The notes beneath the pieces were generated by a model. It was not told the DNA's origin, ran no database searches, and saw only the letters and a program-made list of their open reading frames with translations. The translations under genes and the position numbers were made by a program. From Eledone cirrhosa (taxonomy: Eukaryota): a stretch of 64,000 nucleotides of DNA. Shown here in pieces: positions 6,950 to 61,087 of this stretch (positions are counted from its first letter, which is position 1; each line of letters starts with the position of its first letter). The DNA lies in NCBI GenBank assembly GCA_964016885.1, contig OZ024741.1:377456001-377520000 (forward strand), read 5' to 3'.

Positions 6950-8088
6950 AAATCTCAGAAAACAATAAAACATTAACAGGAAAACAGAGTCATGATATAA
7001 GTTAAAACAATGAAATAAAAAATCAAGTCATTAGAGATATACTTCACTGCTTACGATCGTTTCTAGATGGTGATAATACATAGTATCTATACTCAGTTAT
7101 TGATCTAGGTAAGTTTACAAACTATCAGAGAAAGAGAATATTTACTTACATGCATATCACCAGCTGTTTTCAAAAGCAATAATAGTTTTATTCAATAATG
7201 ATTTTACTCAAAATTAGTAGCTTGTTAGTATTATATCCTTATTTGAAGGTAGTTGAAGAGCTAACGAATCAAATTATTTTTTTCATATGGTGTTAAGATG
7301 AAAAGTAATACACTTTAGTTGAGGTCATGACCCTTTGAAAGGAATGGTTGAAGGGTGTTAGTAGAAATGGCATACAAATCTATTAGGAAGGAAGGGGATT
7401 GTCAAACTGATAGTTGAATGTATCTTGTATAGTGAATTTAAAAGGAATGTCAAAATAAATCGTGATTAGTGTTGTATTGAGTGTTAAGATGAATATAAAT
7501 TAATGTTATGGCGAGGAAAGATAGTATATTACAAGATGAAAATTAAAATAAGATAATTGTTTCTACTTTAAAATGCTAAACGTCTGCGTCGGCCGTGAGA
7601 TGTAGTAATGCGATAATATACGACTTAACCAAACAATATAGTACGGTGTGGTAAATTGCACTTAGTAAAATATAACATATTATACGCTCTAAAATATTAC
7701 TAAGTATGTTTATGCATAAACAATCAAACTCAGATAAGTACATGTTGGCATATTTAAAATACATAAATTTCATAGTCTACAGAGTGCATATATCCACACT
7801 ATATATATAGAGAGGTAAGTTATATTGATATCTAACCAAAATATACATACGTACAAATAGATGCAAACATAAACACACATCCACACGCATGCATATAATC
7901 ATATATATATACACATATCCATACATATATATATACACACATACACATCTATACCTCCAAATATACATATACATATACATTTATATATATATATATATAT
8001 ATATGTATACACACACTTATACATACATACATATATACAAATACATACATATACACACATACACATATACATATGTACATACACATAT

Positions 8089-18492: not shown

Positions 18493-18632
18493 TTGTTGCT
18501 TTTGGAAACAGCTGGTGATATGCATGTAAGTAAATGTTCTTTCTATCTGAGAGTTTGTAAACATACCTAGATCAATAACTGAGTATAGATACAATGCATT
18601 ATCACCTTCTAGAAACGATCGTAAAGCAGTGA
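18493..18632 (+). ncRNA. Type I hammerhead, long stem II, decayed U3-A8 core (TTGGAAA)
   Basis: Stem I TTGTTGCTT/AAGCAGTGA; stem II GGTGATA.TGCAT...ATGCAT.TATCACC; GAAA-CGATCG-TA. Confidence 0.6.
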
Positions 18633-18969: not shown

Positions 18970-19066
18970 TCTTCCTTGTTGAAAATCCAAAAATATCTAC
19001 TTCCGTGACTTACCATCTGATTAATTGGTGAAATATATTTCTTTAATGGAATATATACAGGGAAGA
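18970..19066 (+). ncRNA. Type I hammerhead, U3-A8 core, apparently intact
   Basis: Stem I TCTTCCTTG/CAGGGAAGA (9 bp); TTGAAAA; T-CCAA...TTGG-T; GAAA; stem III TATATTTC/GGAATATA; AUA cleavage triplet ending at 19057. Confidence 0.78.
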
Positions 19067-19531: not shown

Positions 19532-19628
19532 TCTTCCTTGTTGAAAATCCAAAAATATCCACTTCCGTGATTTACCATCTGATTAATTGGTGAAATATAT
19601 TTCTTTAATGGAATATACACAGGGAAGA
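19532..19628 (+). ncRNA. Type I hammerhead copy 2 (U16.1 changed to C)
   Basis: Same as 18970-19066 but GGAATATA-CA-CAGGGAAGA. Confidence 0.7.
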
Positions 19629-20077: not shown

Positions 20078-20174
20078 TCTTCCTTGTTGAATATCCAAAA
20101 ATATCCATATCCGTGATTTACCATTTGATTAATTAGTGAAATATATTTCTTTAATGGAATATATACAGGGAATA
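20078..20174 (+). ncRNA. Type I hammerhead copy 3 (core TTGAATA, decayed)
   Basis: Third tandem unit, same stems with a few substitutions. Confidence 0.65.
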
Positions 20175-20982: not shown

Positions 20983-21370
20983 TAAACGGAATAGAAAATG
21001 CTGACAAATTGTTCACAGTTGAAAAACGGTTTAATTAGGAATAAAAGAGTATTAGTGATTGTATGGGTTAGTATTCAGTTGTGGTTTTAACTTTTTAAGT
21101 TTTTACCGGTTGCGCATTTCTAAATGCTTTTCAATAATAATTTTGAGATAGAGTGTCCGTGCTGTTTGCTCTGATCAGAGCAAACAGCACGGACACTCTA
21201 TCTCAAAATTATTATTGAAAAGCATTTAGAAATGCGCAACCGGTAAAAACTTAAAAAGTTAAAACCACAACTGAATACTAACCCATACAATCACTAATAC
21301 TCTTTTATTCCTAATTAAACCGTTTTTCAACTGTGAACAATTTGTCAGCATTTTCTATTCCGTTTACCAA
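20979..21370. repeat. Perfect spacer-less palindrome of about 390 bp (centre ctga|tcag, 21174/21175) containing a decayed HHR in each arm
   Basis: Arms match base for base as far as checked; + arm 21215-21245 reads TTGAAAA-GCATT TAGA AATGC-GCAA-CCGG-TA. Confidence 0.9.
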
Positions 21371-21763: not shown

Positions 21764-21901
21764 TCATCATTTTACGATCGTTTCTAGGATATATATGTGT
21801 GTGTTGGTATGTATATTATATAGATCTATGTAAAATTTTTACAAACTATCAGAAGGAATATACATACCTACACATATATATGCTGTCTTCAGAAATAATG
21901 A
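21764..21901 (-). ncRNA. Type I hammerhead with intact core and stem II of about 100 nt
   Basis: Stem I TCATTATTT/AAATGATGA (9 bp); CTGAAGA; CAG-C-ATATATATGTGT-A-GGTATGTATATT...AATATACATACC...ACACATATATAT-C-CTA; GAAA-CGATCG-TA. Confidence 0.82.
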
Positions 21902-22665: not shown

Positions 22666-25191
22666 ATGGAAAACAATACTTGGGAACTTCTTTAAAGAAT
22701 ATACCAATACCTTCTAAGGATGAATTCTTACTTCTTATGATACAAAAAAACAACCAATTCATTAAAAGGGTCAGATGGAGGGCCTACCACTTCGATTAAA
22801 AAAATGTACTGATAAGAAATATTTATATGATTTCACTACATATACAATCCCACCACACAACTCCTTGCTTGAAAACTTCGAGAAAGACCTTTTTAACTTA
22901 ATCAAACACCTCAAATTTAAGAAATATAAATCTAATGTTTAAATGGATCTTGATTCTACCCTATTGGATCTAAAACAATCTAACAAAATCCATGTCCACT
23001 CTGACAAAACTGGAAATCTGTATCACATGGATATTGATAATTAAAATGAGTTCTTATATAAAGAACTCAGGAAAAATTATAAAAAAACAAACAATGCGGC
23101 ACTTACCAACATCAACAACAAAACACACAACATAGTAAATAGATTTAATATTGAAGATAGAACTGAACCTTTGGCACTGAAAAAAAACACATTTTAACCT
23201 GAAAGATCACAAATCTAATGTTAACTCTAATCCTTCTATAAGGCTTATATGCCCTTCCAAATCTGACATTGGCATCATTAGTAAAAAAAAATTGTAGATA
23301 GAGTCATCCCACAATTAAGAAAACATGTTAATTTACCACTCTGGGAAAACACATCCCAGGTAATTAACTGGTTTACTAATATTAGAAATAAATCTTCTGC
23401 TTCATTTCTTCAATTCGATATAGATGCTTATTATTCCTCTGTATCACCTATACTCCTGAACAAAGCCTTGATATTTGCCCAAAATAGATCAAACTTAACT
23501 ATGGATGACATTAATATTATCACACATGCTAGACAAACGCTACTGGAATTTCAGAGAGAATACTGGACCAGAAACACATATAGTAATCTATTCGACATTA
23601 CTATGGGCTCTAGTGATTCTGCCCAAATTACCGATCTTGTGGGCCTCTTTCTTCTATTTAACATAAATGCTTCTTTTCCCCACCTTAAAGGTGGTTTATA
23701 TCGTGACGACTGTCTTCTTCTTTCCAATAACCTTAGCCTATCAGAAATTGAAAAAAATAAAAAACACTTATTAGAACTTTCCTCAAAGACTATTATAGTC
23801 TCGATATTACATTTGAAAACACAAGTAAAGTAGTTAATTTCCTTGATATAGCATTTGACTTATCTACGGGTATCTACCAACCTTACCATAAACCTAACCA
23901 AAACTTACATTACATACACTCACAATCTAATCACCCTAAATCTATCCTTAAAAACCTAGCATATAATATCTCACTTAGAATTTCTAACCTTTCCTCTAAC
24001 CAGGATGTATTTGATAAAAATGCGACCTTTTATAACGAAGCTTTAGCTAGAAGCGGCCACAAAAACAAATTAGTATATATACCTTGTACCAATAACACTA
24101 CAAACATACAACCTAATATTACGAACAAACCCCAAATGAAATATATACACCTAAATGCTACTCACACTATACCCCAAAATACCAACATAAAACTTAATTT
24201 CTCTAACTCTTCTAATATACAATATAGTAACTTTCAAAAATCATTCCTCCTAATACTCCAATATATGTTAATAACAAAATTCTTAATAAACAGGCTAAAA
24301 CACCTAAATCAATGAATCTAACTAAAAATATGTGTAATAAAATGTCTAATACTAATTCTCTTAATAAACATCAGGATACATCCTATAAAAATAATAAACA
24401 ACATCGAAACCGTAATAGACCAGTTACTTGGTATAATACTCCATTTAATCTACAAATTAAAGATAATATACCCAAAAAAATGTTTACTATCCTAGAGAAA
24501 AACTTCCCGCCAAACCATAAATACCATCAAATTTTAAATAAATCAACGGTTAAATTCTCCTACTCAACAACCAAAAATATACAAAATATAAGTGCCTATA
24601 ATGCATATAAATGTAAAAGAAACCATGAAAAAACCACCAATACATCAAACTAACCATAATACTAAAATAAACCACAGCAAACAACCATCTTATTCACATA
24701 CAACAAGTTGTGAAAATTCCACACCTAATTTGACTATCTCCTCTGATACAGCATTCACGAAAGGTTGTAACTGTAGAAACAAAGCAAATTGCCCATTAAA
24801 AGGACATTGCCTTATTAATAACATAGTATATAAATGTAAAATTAACACTAAGGACTCAACTTATTCATATATAGGAGCTAGTTCTAACCAATTTAATGTA
24901 AGATTTAATACCCACAAACACTGTTTTAAAAATGCCGCATTGGCTAATACAACATCCTTAGCTGAAATAATTAATAATTATAGAAAAAGGAATATAGATT
25001 ATAACCTGACCTGGAGTGTGCTCATAAGAGCCACCCCTTATCAAAATAATAGATATGAATGTAGATTATGTTCCCAGGAACTTTTTGAAATAATGAAATC
25101 TAAGGATATCCTATTAAATAAGCGACAGGAATTAATTATATCATGTAATCATAAATTGAGAAGAACTTTTATATATTATAAACCTAATTAA
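22666..25191 (+). pseudogene. Frameshifted PLE ORF (RT + GIY-YIG)
   Basis: ORF-track pieces 23468-23833, 24312-24653, 24592-25191 plus an upstream decayed N-terminus. Confidence 0.9.
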
Positions 25192-25920: not shown

Positions 25921-26055
25921 TCATTATTTCTGAAGACAGCATATATATATGTAGGTATGTATATTCCTTCTGATAGTTTGTAAACATTTTACATAGATCT
26001 ATATGATATACATACCAACACACACATATAAATCCTAGAAACGATCGTAAAATGA
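25921..26055 (+). ncRNA. Type I hammerhead with intact core and long stem II (3' pLTR copy)
   Basis: TTATTT-CTGAAGA-CAG...CTA-GAAA-CGATCG-TA-AAATGA. Confidence 0.8.
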
Positions 26056-26285
26056 ATTTTTTAATATAAGGAACTGTTTCTTTGTTTTTATTCATTATTT
26101 TTATTAATTTATCTTGACTGTTTTCCTGTATTTTTCATCGACAAATATGTTTGAATACATCTTCTCTTTTCATGATATTCGGATTACATTGAGTTCTTCA
26201 TACGGATTAGACACTACCGTACATTTTGGTAGATTTATCTACATATATATATATATTAAAATAACAGATTAAAGTTTAAACAAAG

Positions 26286-52485: not shown

Positions 52486-52527
<42 letters not shown>

Positions 52528-52595
52528 AAAAAGAGATGAAATCGAAAATGCAACTGGAGTCTTATTTTTTTTTAAATATATATATTTATTTGGTT

Positions 52596-52633
52596 CCTTT
52601 ACCGGTTTCGCAGTTCTTCTGCTTTTCAAAAGG
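52596..52633 (-). ncRNA. Minimal type I hammerhead, U3-A8 core, intact
   Basis: CCTT-TTGAAAA-GCAG AAGAA CTGC-GAAA-CCGG-TA-AAGG; palindromic stem III ACCGGT. Confidence 0.8.
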
Positions 52634-53453
52634 TGAGTTGAGATGGAGGGTCTGTGGTTTTTCTCACATCTGGTTGGTCTCTGAATGTTACTTGTTTTAT
52701 ATGGAAAAAGTGGCTCGAGATGCCAGGTTTTTCGAGAAGTAATTTGATTGGTTTGTCAATAATTATAATAAATTTCGCGCCAGTTCGCGTTGTAATAGTT
52801 CTTCAAATAAGGGGGGGGGGGCGTTGTCACAGGTTGTTTTTTCATATATGAGTGTTTGAATTTCTTTTTACTTGAAAATAGGAGGCTCACGAAGGCTTTT
52901 TTTTTGGTTGGTTATAAATGAAATTATGGCTGTCACGTGAACAAATTTTCATAAAATTTTTGTGCCCTTATTTGGAAATCCATTCTGTAGACTTTTTAGA
53001 GAATTTTTGGATAAGTGAAAGAAAATGGTCAAGAGAAAGGGATGGGATAATTGTTCTGGTTCAGTGAATATGGTTAGTTCGCTGGGGTGTCAAAATTCAG
53101 ATTTTCTATTGAATAAAGAAAGTAAAGATATGTGTGTTTATTTGTGTGCTTGTGTGTGTGTGTGTGTGTGTTTGAATTTCTTTACTTTAAAAAAAAGGGT
53201 GGCTCACTTTTCAAGTAAAAAGAAATTTAAACACTCATATACGAAAAAACAACCTGTGACAACCCCCCCCCCCCTCTTATTTGAAGAACTATTGTAACGC
53301 GAACTGGCGCGAAATTTATTATAATTATTGACAAACCAATCAAATTACTACTCGAAAAACCTGGCATTTCGAGCCACTTTTTCCATATAAAACAAGTAAC
53401 ATTCAGAGACCAACCAGATGTGAGAAAAACCACAGACCCTCCATCTTAACTCA

Positions 53454-53491
53454 CCTTTTAAAAAGCAGAAGAACTGCGAAACCGGTAAAGG
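53454..53491 (+). ncRNA. Inverted copy of the above with G5 changed to A
   Basis: CCTT-TTAAAAA-GCAG AAGAA CTGC-GAAA-CCGG-TA-AAGG. Confidence 0.65.
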
Positions 53492-53626
53492 AACCAAATA
53501 AATATATATATTTTTAAAAAAATAAGACTCCAGTTGCATTTTCGATTTCATCTCTTTTTCTTTATACTTTCACTAGTGTAGGACACCTCGGTTATTTTTC
53601 ATTTTGTAAAAAATACCTCACTTTCT

Positions 53627-59585: not shown

Positions 59586-59708
59586 ATCGGCTAGGTACAG
59601 AAAAAGAGAGTGCTCTATGTAGGTTACATAGCTTATTAGTTATCTAATAAACAACATAAGATAATTATTTCATTTACCAGTGGTTTCTTGAAAGCAGATG
59701 TGTTATTA

Positions 59709-59760
59709 ATTCTGACGACTGGAAGCAGATGTATCTGCTTTCAAGAAACCACTGGTAAAT
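59709..59760 (+). ncRNA. Type I hammerhead at the centre of a fold-back (59638-59700 / 59733-59794)
   Basis: ATT-CTGACGA-C-TGGAAGCAGAT GT ATCTGCTTTCA-A-GAAA-CCACTGG-TA-AAT. Confidence 0.75.
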
Positions 59761-61087
59761 GAAATAATTATCTTATTGTGTTTATTACATAACTATATAT
59801 ATATATATGTGTGTGTGTATGTACAAATACACATACATATATATATTGTGTGTGTTTTGGTGTGTGTGCGTCAATATTCGGCAAACTGATATACAGAGTT
59901 ACCCGAACATACACATACATTGTATATGCTTTTATACCTCCCAATTTACCGTTACCTTCCCGTTTGAAAACACACAGAAATAAACAAAAAAAGTAGAAAC
60001 ACATTTCATTTCCAACCCGAGATGGATATAATTTTAAGAATTTACTAAATCAACAAAAAATGCTCTAGTTGACTATAACTTTTTAATCATAAGAAAATGA
60101 AATATATACGTAGTACTTATATTGGTAAACAATATATCGAAAAAGCTTCTGGCTAATATTAATACAAGGGTTGATGTAAATAAGCTTAGTTTCTAATAAC
60201 AGAAATACTGAAAAATTATAACACCCACCACATCATATCTGAATAATATTGTATGACGGCATATCATATATCCTGCAGTTAACATGATACACTAACGTGT
60301 CTGAGAATTTATCTCCTAATTATAGTTCTTTACAAAGAAAGATGATTTTACATCGGAGTTACTTCGAATAATTTTAAGGTGTTTTAAGTTGGTCTATTAT
60401 TAAATCACCTAAAAGGTGGTGGATTAGCAGATTCGTTTGAGTGTCGCACAACTATTTGATTTGTCATTTTACATTCTGGTTTAAAATTATGCTCAGGGAT
60501 GCCTCTAATTCTTCCAGGGCAATTTAATTGCCTTCAACTACCAAAAAAAAAAAAAAAAATTGCTGACCTTTTGCTTAAACTGGCAAACATTAACTCGACA
60601 AACGCAAAGAGGCCACAGGTTCGACTCGGGTTTATCTTCTGTGTAAGCACTGTAGGTGTCAATATCTATATCTATATATAACTAAATGTCTGTGATTGCT
60701 TGCTTGCTTGCCTGTAAGGTAATACAGCCAAAAGAGTGCATAATGGGGAAATAGTTTGAAAGCAAGTTGACCCTGAAATGCTAATACAAATGAATAAAAC
60801 AAATTTCGCGTAAATCGGAGGACGGGTTCCCGAAATATGGAAGTGTTCCTTCATAGACAGAGAGAGAAAGATATAGTGGTTGTGAGAGAGTAGATTAAAA
60901 GGGAGACATAAAGAGAGATGAAGAGGAGACAGAGAAGGAGAATGGAAGAAAGAGAGAGAGAAAGAGATGATGGTGTTGTTGTGTATATATATATATAGGT
61001 GAGTGTGTGTATGTGTGTGTGTATCTATGACCCATGTATATAGATCATAGAACCATCATATATATATATATATATACACACACCCAT

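What the first reader, a model, noticed from the sequence alone, without database searches (positions are those of the whole stretch)
52596..52633. C3-G8 to U3-A8 compensatory swap recurs in three dissimilar HHR families
Seen: TTGAAAA replaces CTGANGA in the minimal family (52596; relics at 53454 and 21215), the large-loop family (18970, 19532) and the long-stem-II family (7044; relic 18493). The related long-stem-II copies at 21764 and 25921 keep CTGAAGA. Established: positions 3 and 8 form a tertiary Watson-Crick pair in the active hammerhead, and compensatory pairs can rescue activity. Inference: paired changes in separate lineages imply selection for catalysis and perhaps tuned, slower cleavage or adaptation to AT pressure.
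Basis: partly seen in the sequence, partly recalled or inferred. Interest (0 to 1): 0.8.

Follow-up and report, generated by a model that had tools for sequence, protein, structure and literature searches.

The report
Hammerhead core pair swaps, including G3-C8
In this animal genome, thousands of hammerhead-shaped RNA motifs in jumping-gene repeats carry a known swap of one core base pair (C-G to U-A), and one repeat family also has several hundred copies with the reversed pair (G-C), which likely still self-cut but have not been tested.

Summary
All three families carry U3-A8 as their amplified state, not as drift: at least 98.5% of 14,881 minimal-family matches, and whole subfamilies of the other two. 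Natural U3-A8 is already published, also for Penelope-like elements (PMC3088659, PMC4209133). Separate origins are shown for two families, each with a C3-G8 sister; no such sister was found for the minimal family. AT pressure is not supported; tuned cleavage is untested.

The new part lies in the large-loop family (window 18970, 19532), a ~550-base tandem repeat. Of 99 copies picked by anchors outside the ribozyme, 59 are U3-A8, 23 G3-C8, 12 C3-G8 and 5 unpaired. G3-C8 copies form one clade next to C3-G8 copies, roughly 350 in the genome. The other nine core positions show no shared change where about 5 are expected, so selection on the source copies is likely. I found no paper reporting natural G3-C8, but key papers were not held. 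This scan noted G3-C8 before, in phages and protist retroelements. Cleavage is not shown.

The parts
52596..52633 (-). Minimal-family type I hammerhead, U3-A8, palindromic stem III; core 52629-52623, predicted cut after 52600
53454..53491 (+). Minimal-family relic (U3-A8 kept, G5A) in the inverted arm 53266-53566 that mirrors 52521-52821
21215..21245 (+). Diverged minimal-family relic, U3-A8, A13C
21104..21134 (-).
18970..19066 (+). Large-loop family type I hammerhead, U3-A8, intact: 9-bp stem I, U.U at 10.1/11.1, 9-bp stem III; first of three tandem ~550-base units
19532..19628 (+). Large-loop unit 2, U3-A8, U16.1C relic
20078..20174 (+).
7044..7182 (-). Long-stem-II family, U3-A8 subfamily; one A missing in the run at the cut site
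18493..18632 (+). Long-stem-II U3-A8 relic (A6G)
21764..21901 (-). Long-stem-II family, C3-G8 subfamily, inverted 5' arm of the element
25921..26058 (+). Long-stem-II C3-G8 copy in the 3' repeat behind the ORF
23285..25191 (+). Broken Penelope-like ORF (reverse-transcriptase-like part, then GIY-YIG-like part) that belongs to the long-stem-II C3-G8 subfamily
   Evidence: Pfam itself gave no hit

Best explanation
These are type I hammerhead motifs in the terminal repeats and non-coding derivatives of Penelope-like retroelements, whose source copies were likely selected to keep a self-cutting core, so that positions 3 and 8 change mainly as a matched pair (C-G, U-A and, in one family, G-C). Shown: anatomy, family-wide states, one G3-C8 clade, a frozen remaining core. 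Inferred: tandem or two-repeat transcripts are cut after the UA triplet into unit-length RNAs that a Penelope-like reverse transcriptase copies back into the genome (in trans for the ORF-less large-loop and minimal families); only masters with a paired 3-8 amplify to hundreds of copies, while inserted copies decay neutrally. From established chemistry: the pair positions residue 8 and its identity is partly exchangeable (C3G or G8C alone kills, the double mutant partly rescues). Inferred: the swaps are tolerated, nearly neutral alternatives, not an adaptation; U-A is reachable through a U.G wobble, while G-C must pass an inactive mismatch, likely carried in a tandem array whose neighbouring ribozymes still cut; the A at position 17 would spare G3 from the G3-C17 mispair.
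For: Minimal family: 138 non-U3 and 78 U3/non-A8 against 14,881 total. Long-stem-II: at most 180 discordant of 4,947; 24 C3-G8 and 6 U3-A8 in 30 loci, each tied to its own stem II. Large-loop: 1,758 U3-A8; 643 non-U3 with 55 G3-C8, 31 C3-G8 and 14 other in the first 100 rows; 57 U3/non-A8 (hand tallies); 94 of 99 Watson-Crick when picked by outside anchors. Tree of 138 copies with columns 3 and 8 removed: all 29 G3-C8 in one clade of 38 (UFBoot 98) with several inner subgroups; 3 parsimony steps on 97 paired tips against at least 32 in 1,000 shuffles. Related family L371/L372 is C3-G8 and roots the tree among C3-G8 copies. In 30 copies picked by outside anchors, 0 shared changes in 9 core columns, 5.2 expected (P 0.005 to 0.02). 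Stem I covaries in 6 of 9 pairs. Two alternative 3' ends and inverted arms as in Penelope-like insertions. Double-mutant rescue: PMC11167929, PMC9901934, PMC8495972 (passages).
Against: No cleavage or expression data. In the one reconstituted Penelope-like element, hammerhead mutants did not affect insertion in vitro and no RNA-seq reads ended at the cut site (PMC11167929). Small lineages with imperfect cores did amplify: a U3.G8 clade of 7 copies at 6 loci (UFBoot 100) and U4C in 3 of 99 rows; only one U4C copy was among the 30, and adding the others would weaken that test. Several of those 30 are arms or units of one insertion. In one pairwise-mutant scan only the G-C swap rescued, not U-A (PMC9901934). 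The rooted tree has weak support at most deep nodes. No ORF was tied to the large-loop (0 of 126) or minimal (1 of 115) family.
Confidence: 0.72

Rival explanations
1. The hammerhead fold is kept for a non-catalytic job, such as binding the element's protein or setting where reverse transcription starts; the 3-8 pair is conserved for shape and cutting is incidental.
For: PMC11167929: cleavage needed the protein, was dispensable for insertion in vitro, and left no RNA ends. PMC4209133: low in vitro activity of minimal motifs; other functions not ruled out. Amplified U.G and U4C sublineages.
Against: Every catalytic-core position is frozen on shared branches, including G12 and the cut triplet; one motif per tandem unit fits unit-length processing as in retrozymes (PMC7229834).
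Confidence: 0.13
2. The swaps are adaptive tuning: U3-A8 with A17 forms a competing U3-A17 pair that slows cutting, leaving more uncut template, and such masters out-amplify their sisters.
For: Predicted U3-A17 pairing probability averages 0.73 in 52 U3-A8 large-loop copies and 0 in G3 or C3 copies. U3-A8 is the largest large-loop subfamily and the state of the 14,881-copy family. An analogous C3-G17 trap is described (PMC3884650).
Against: In the long-stem-II family the C3-G8 sister is about 3.5 times commoner (77 against 22 of 100 rows); 70 of 86 sampled motifs are C3-G8, many with A17; three further U3-A8 groups have C17. Folding programs do not model the tertiary core.
Confidence: 0.1
3. 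Founder effect: dead motifs hitch-hiked; a few masters acquired two mutations by chance and amplified.
For: Copy numbers reflect few masters, so counts are not independent; only 2 to 3 switches are seen in the large-loop tree.
Against: At least four separate paired switches (two in large-loop, one in long-stem-II, one in the L227 / window 57539 pair), one needing two specific transversions; no large mismatched subfamily; frozen core and covarying stems.
Confidence: 0.04
4. Mutational AT pressure drives C3-G8 to U3-A8.
For: The genome sample is 36% G+C; both changes are transitions towards A/T; U3-A8 arose more often than G3-C8.
Against: U-A subfamilies have equal or higher G+C than their C-G sisters: 31.5 against 26.1% (long-stem-II), 31.4 against 29.5% (large-loop); most families remain C3-G8; G3-C8 arose too. 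Transition bias and a wobble intermediate explain the excess of U-A without directional pressure (inference).
Confidence: 0.05

Closest known systems
Minimal type I hammerheads of metazoan Penelope-like elements, U3-A8 variant (Cervera and De la Pena 2014, PMC4209133; read: parts 1-2 of 4 of the main text, parts 1-2 of 3 of supplementary file 2)
   Same: Type I motif in terminal repeats, palindromic stem III, short stem I, copies on opposite strands close together; U3-A8 variant with about 1,300 hits in Schistosoma mansoni; their Fig. S3 also lists a U3.G8 core.
   Different: No G3-C8 core among the 56 rows of Fig. S3 as extracted; no family with three paired states; the large-loop motif has a 9-bp stem III and should fold as a monomer; the long-stem-II motif has a ~100-base stem II arm with C.A at its base.
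Natural core variants of hammerheads (Perreault et al. 2011, PMC3088659; read: passages and section 8)
   Same: First report of natural U3-A8; also U10.1-U11.1, seen here in the large-loop family.
   Different: The section read names no G3-C8; no copy-number or lineage evidence.
Animal non-LTR retrozymes (Cervera and De la Pena 2020, PMC7229834, passages; bioRxiv 10.64898/2026.07.22.740005, listing and one passage)
   Same: Non-coding tandem repeats with one type I hammerhead per unit, AT-rich, proposed to derive from Penelope-like repeats.
   Different: Unit here is about 550 bases (published 150-450); arrays are short, with inverted 5' arms and two 3' ends; circular RNA not shown; core pair varies.
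Engineered C3G/G8C double mutants (Frangieh et al. 2024, PMC11167929; Roberts et al. 2023, PMC9901934; passages)
   Same: The same G3-C8 pair, which restores part of the activity in vitro, once in a Penelope-like element's hammerhead.
   Different: Those are laboratory mutants; here the pair is natural and amplified.

Membership tests
Type I hammerhead ribozyme | Three stems around the core, open at stem I | tested here: met
   Descriptor scan, folds (z about -3 for large-loop copies) and pair counts:
Type I hammerhead ribozyme | Invariant core U4 G5 A6 A9 G12 A13 A14 A15.1 U16.1 and H17 | tested here: met
   27 of 30 outside-anchored large-loop copies keep all nine; intact at 52596 and 18970; relics listed under parts fail singly
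Type I hammerhead ribozyme | Watson-Crick pair between positions 3 and 8 | tested here: met
   94 of 99; at least 98.5% of 14,881; identity U-A or G-C instead of C-G in many
Type I hammerhead ribozyme | Loop I / loop II tertiary contact | not tested
   Not sought; the large loop II was not modelled
Type I hammerhead ribozyme | Site-specific self-cleavage | not testable with these tools
   Needs an assay or raw RNA reads
Penelope-like element terminal-repeat hammerhead | Motif in a repeat flanking an RT plus GIY-YIG ORF (long-stem-II family) | tested here: met
   10 of 55 copies have the window's ORF end upstream at 74-96% identity; ORF look-alikes carry RVT_1 (16% of one cluster) and GIY-YIG (31%); a U3-A8 copy is followed by a 76% identical ORF in one locus, L059
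Penelope-like element terminal-repeat hammerhead | Same ORF link for the minimal and large-loop families | tested here: inconclusive
   1 of 115 and 0 of 126 copies with at least 1,200 bases upstream held; they look non-autonomous or the ORF lies further off
Penelope-like element terminal-repeat hammerhead | Inverted 5' arm and two alternative 3' ends (tail signature) | tested here: met
   Shared sequence ends about 105 or 170 bases (minimal) and about 235 or 340-365 bases (large-loop) behind U3; inverted arms
Non-LTR retrozyme (large-loop family works like one; not filed as member) | Tandem non-coding units, one type I hammerhead each | tested here: met
   Three units, 562-base period, longest stop-free frame 43 aa
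Non-LTR retrozyme (large-loop family works like one; not filed as member) | Unit of 150-450 bases | tested here: not met
   About 550 bases against the range in PMC7229834
Non-LTR retrozyme (large-loop family works like one; not filed as member) | Expressed as circular RNA | not testable with these tools
   Needs RNA data

The most novel reading that the evidence does not exclude
The large-loop repeat is a natural evolution experiment on a ribozyme's catalytic pair: one lineage crossed a two-transversion fitness valley to an active G3-C8 hammerhead that then drove several rounds of retrotransposition (about 350 copies), the first amplified natural G3-C8 hammerhead family, beside C3-G8 and U3-A8 sisters and a U3.G8 wobble offshoot.
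Probability: 0.5. Interest if true: 0.65.

Novelty: new variant of a known kind. Interest (0 to 1): 0.48.

Why it matters
The U3-A8 swap itself is ordinary. The G3-C8 subfamily matters because the reversed pair was, in the papers I could read, a laboratory rescue mutant; hundreds of related genomic copies give lineage-level evidence that it is tolerated in a mobile element. One family with three paired states in nearly the same background allows a direct test of whether hammerhead cutting is needed for Penelope-type mobility and of how compensatory pairs cross inactive intermediates. It also shows that searches fixed on CUGANGA miss whole subfamilies.

Tried and rejected
Rfam scans listed no hammerhead family; the microRNA-like hits are microsatellites and palindromes. 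Pfam gave nothing useful for eight ORF fragments (one weak unrelated hit below its cut-off) and PDB nothing. Run search: no RNA holder listed. Contigs of three runs of one sample laid on a G3-C8 copy showed no other letter at positions 3 and 8 at 5% or more; this may be the assembly's own sample, so it is not counted as independent. A metagenome scan for the large-loop G3-C8 pattern gave 59 matches, none a family member beyond the pattern itself. No A3-U8 group in any family listing. No C3-G8 sister for the minimal family. A third switch or reversion in the large-loop family (3 steps) is not supported by the rooted tree. Literature searches for natural G3-C8 returned only engineered mutants; Lunse et al. 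2016, Przybilski and Hammann 2007, Martick and Scott 2006 and Nelson and Uhlenbeck 2008 were not held, and supplementary file 1 of PMC4209133 was not searchable; any of these may bear on novelty.

Full report
Setting. The window lies in a 3.0-Gb assembly. It is 32% G+C, rich in microsatellites and in broken ORFs that look like Penelope-like reverse transcriptase and GIY-YIG endonuclease. Pfam did not name them; language-model look-alikes of two fragments carry RVT_1 (16% of one cluster) and GIY-YIG (31% of one cluster).

The observation. A descriptor scan recovers 52596-52633 (-) as a type I minimal hammerhead with core TTGAAAA. All named sites were read on both strands. The heptamer is exact at 52629(-), 21215, 18979, 19541 and 7173(-); 53458 and 18502 keep U3 and A8 but have G5A and A6G; 21892(-) and 25930 are C3-G8. 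The 19532 copy is a relic (U16.1C). Two unlisted copies lie at 21134(-) and 20087. Rfam listed no hammerhead, also not for canonical copies.

Genome counts. Minimal family: 14,881 matches, all of the first 100 rows U3-A8; 138 non-U3, the 100 listed all with A8; 78 U3 without A8. So at least 98.5% are U3-A8, single changes occur at under 1% and no C3-G8 sister was seen. Long-stem-II family: 4,947 matches; 77 G8, 22 A8 and 1 U8 in the first 100 rows, each state tied to its own stem II (hand tally); 24 C3-G8 and 6 U3-A8 in the 30 loci; 52 and 128 discordant matches, about a third of the latter's listed rows false starts. The C3-G8 subfamily is the terminal repeat of the element whose ORF lies at 23285-25191; one U3-A8 copy is followed by an ORF 76% identical to it.

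The large-loop family holds three paired states. With one pattern: 1,758 U3-A8, 57 U3 without A8, 643 non-U3 (reversed control 11). The first 100 rows are 55 G3-C8, 31 C3-G8 (2 from a related family) and 14 other, none A3-U8 (hand tally), which extrapolates to about 350 G3-C8 copies. A pattern anchored wholly outside the ribozyme gave 1,221 matches; of the first 100 rows one is not family, 59 are U3-A8, 23 G3-C8, 12 C3-G8 and 5 unpaired (hand tally). The motif is a full type I hammerhead with 9-bp stems I and III and U.U at the base of stem II; 6 of 9 stem I pairs change on both sides in 20 hand-picked copies. In the window it sits once per ~550-base tandem unit with no ORF, with an inverted 5' piece and two alternative 3' ends.

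History. In a tree of 138 copies (set enriched on purpose for mismatched copies; columns 3 and 8 removed) all 29 G3-C8 copies fall in one clade of 38 (UFBoot 98) whose other 9 tips differ at one of the two positions; it has several inner subgroups and 0.29 substitutions per site on inner branches. Three parsimony steps explain 97 paired tips, against at least 32 in 1,000 shuffles; kin share labels, so this shows few switches, not co-evolution by itself. C3-G8 copies have the longest terminal branches (0.050 against 0.029 and 0.022), a related family is C3-G8, and rooting on it places the root among C3-G8 copies with weak support (57 of the 138 copies used). At least two switches follow, C-G to U-A and C-G to G-C. 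With the long-stem-II pair and the pair L227 / window 57539 (one U3-A8 copy only) there are at least four separate paired switches in the genome.

Selection. Counts are not independent, so I asked what changed on shared branches among 30 copies picked by outside anchors: 0 changes in nine core columns against 5.2 expected from 177 other columns (P 0.005 by Poisson, 0.02 allowing for slow columns), while positions 3 and 8 changed 3 and 2 times. Against this: some of the 30 are arms of one insertion, a U4C lineage appears in 3 of 99 rows (one among the 30), and a U3.G8 clade of 7 copies at 6 loci amplified inside the U3-A8 branch. Mild core changes can thus spread a little; no large mismatched subfamily was seen.

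AT pressure and tuning. In 80 evenly spaced 10-kb stretches, 86 motifs scored 16 or more (reversed control 4): 70 C3-G8, 7 U3-A8, 4 U3.G8, 5 other, no G3-C8. U-A subfamilies are not AT-richer than their sisters. AT pressure is not supported. Folding predicts a competing U3-A17 pair in U3-A8 copies (mean 0.73 in 52) and none in G3 or C3 copies, like the C3-G17 trap described in PMC3884650 (passages), which also says a G3-C8 variant does better without C17. Slower cutting of U3-A8 is plausible but untested, and an adaptive role does not follow.

What is known. Natural U3-A8 was reported by Perreault et al. 2011 (PMC3088659, section 8) and in Penelope-like elements by Cervera and De la Pena 2014 (PMC4209133), whose Fig. 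S3 shows two U3-A8 cores, one U3.G8 core and no G3-C8 in the extracted text. C3G/G8C rescue is known from mutants (PMC11167929, PMC9901934, PMC8495972; passages). PMC11167929 also found cleavage protein-assisted and dispensable for insertion in vitro; PMC9901934 saw rescue by G-C only. I also read passages of PMC6765202, PMC7229834, PMC10085705, PMC13725137 and bioRxiv 10.64898/2026.07.22.740005; none of the passages named natural G3-C8. Seven searches found no report of it, but four key papers were not held. Earlier notes of this scan describe G3-C8 in phages and protist elements, in few copies; I did not test them.

Verdict. The finding as written is real and mostly known. Following it shows an amplified G3-C8 lineage beside C3-G8 and U3-A8 sisters in one repeat family: a new variant of a known kind. 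Most likely the source copies are selected for a working core and the three pairs are tolerated alternatives (0.72). Cleavage remains to be shown. Interest 0.48.

Noticed in passing
G000, 80 evenly spaced 10-kb stretches (L171-L250): 86 well-scoring hammerhead motifs in 800 kb from many families, about one per 9 kb; extrapolated, some 300,000 in the genome.
   Followed up: partly
window 39321(+), 46041(+), 57950(+), 57539(-): Four further C3-G8 hammerheads of other families; 46041 has full stems I and III.
   Followed up: partly
L227:760-815 and window 57539(-): Homologous minimal hammerheads, one U3-A8 and one C3-G8, with a compensated stem II change as well.
   Followed up: partly
L163, L169, L170, L365-L367: Small amplified clade with a U3.G8 wobble inside the U3-A8 branch of the large-loop family.
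   Followed up: yes
L311, L368, L369: Large-loop copies with U4C on a U3-A8 core, sharing upstream letters: a small amplified lineage.
   Followed up: partly
window 7044, 18493, 21764, 25921: Both long-stem-II subfamilies have a C.A mismatch where stem II should begin (10.1/11.1), followed by two pairs and a second mismatch.
   Followed up: no
L150, L151, L236, L243; L225: Two more U3-A8 groups, with C17 cut sites; the L225 family often occurs as tiny palindromes holding only the 3' half of the motif.
   Followed up: partly
L098:165: A long-stem-III motif with U3.G8 seen in two places; family state unknown.
   Followed up: no
G000:C1:348.86-348.91 Mb (L374): A minimal-family fragment repeats every 9.6 kb six times, a tandem duplication; its C3 looks like the result of a short deletion.
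   Followed up: partly
window 21095-21254 and 59638-59793: Long near-perfect palindromes from head-to-head insertions; they give spurious microRNA-family scores in Rfam.
   Followed up: no
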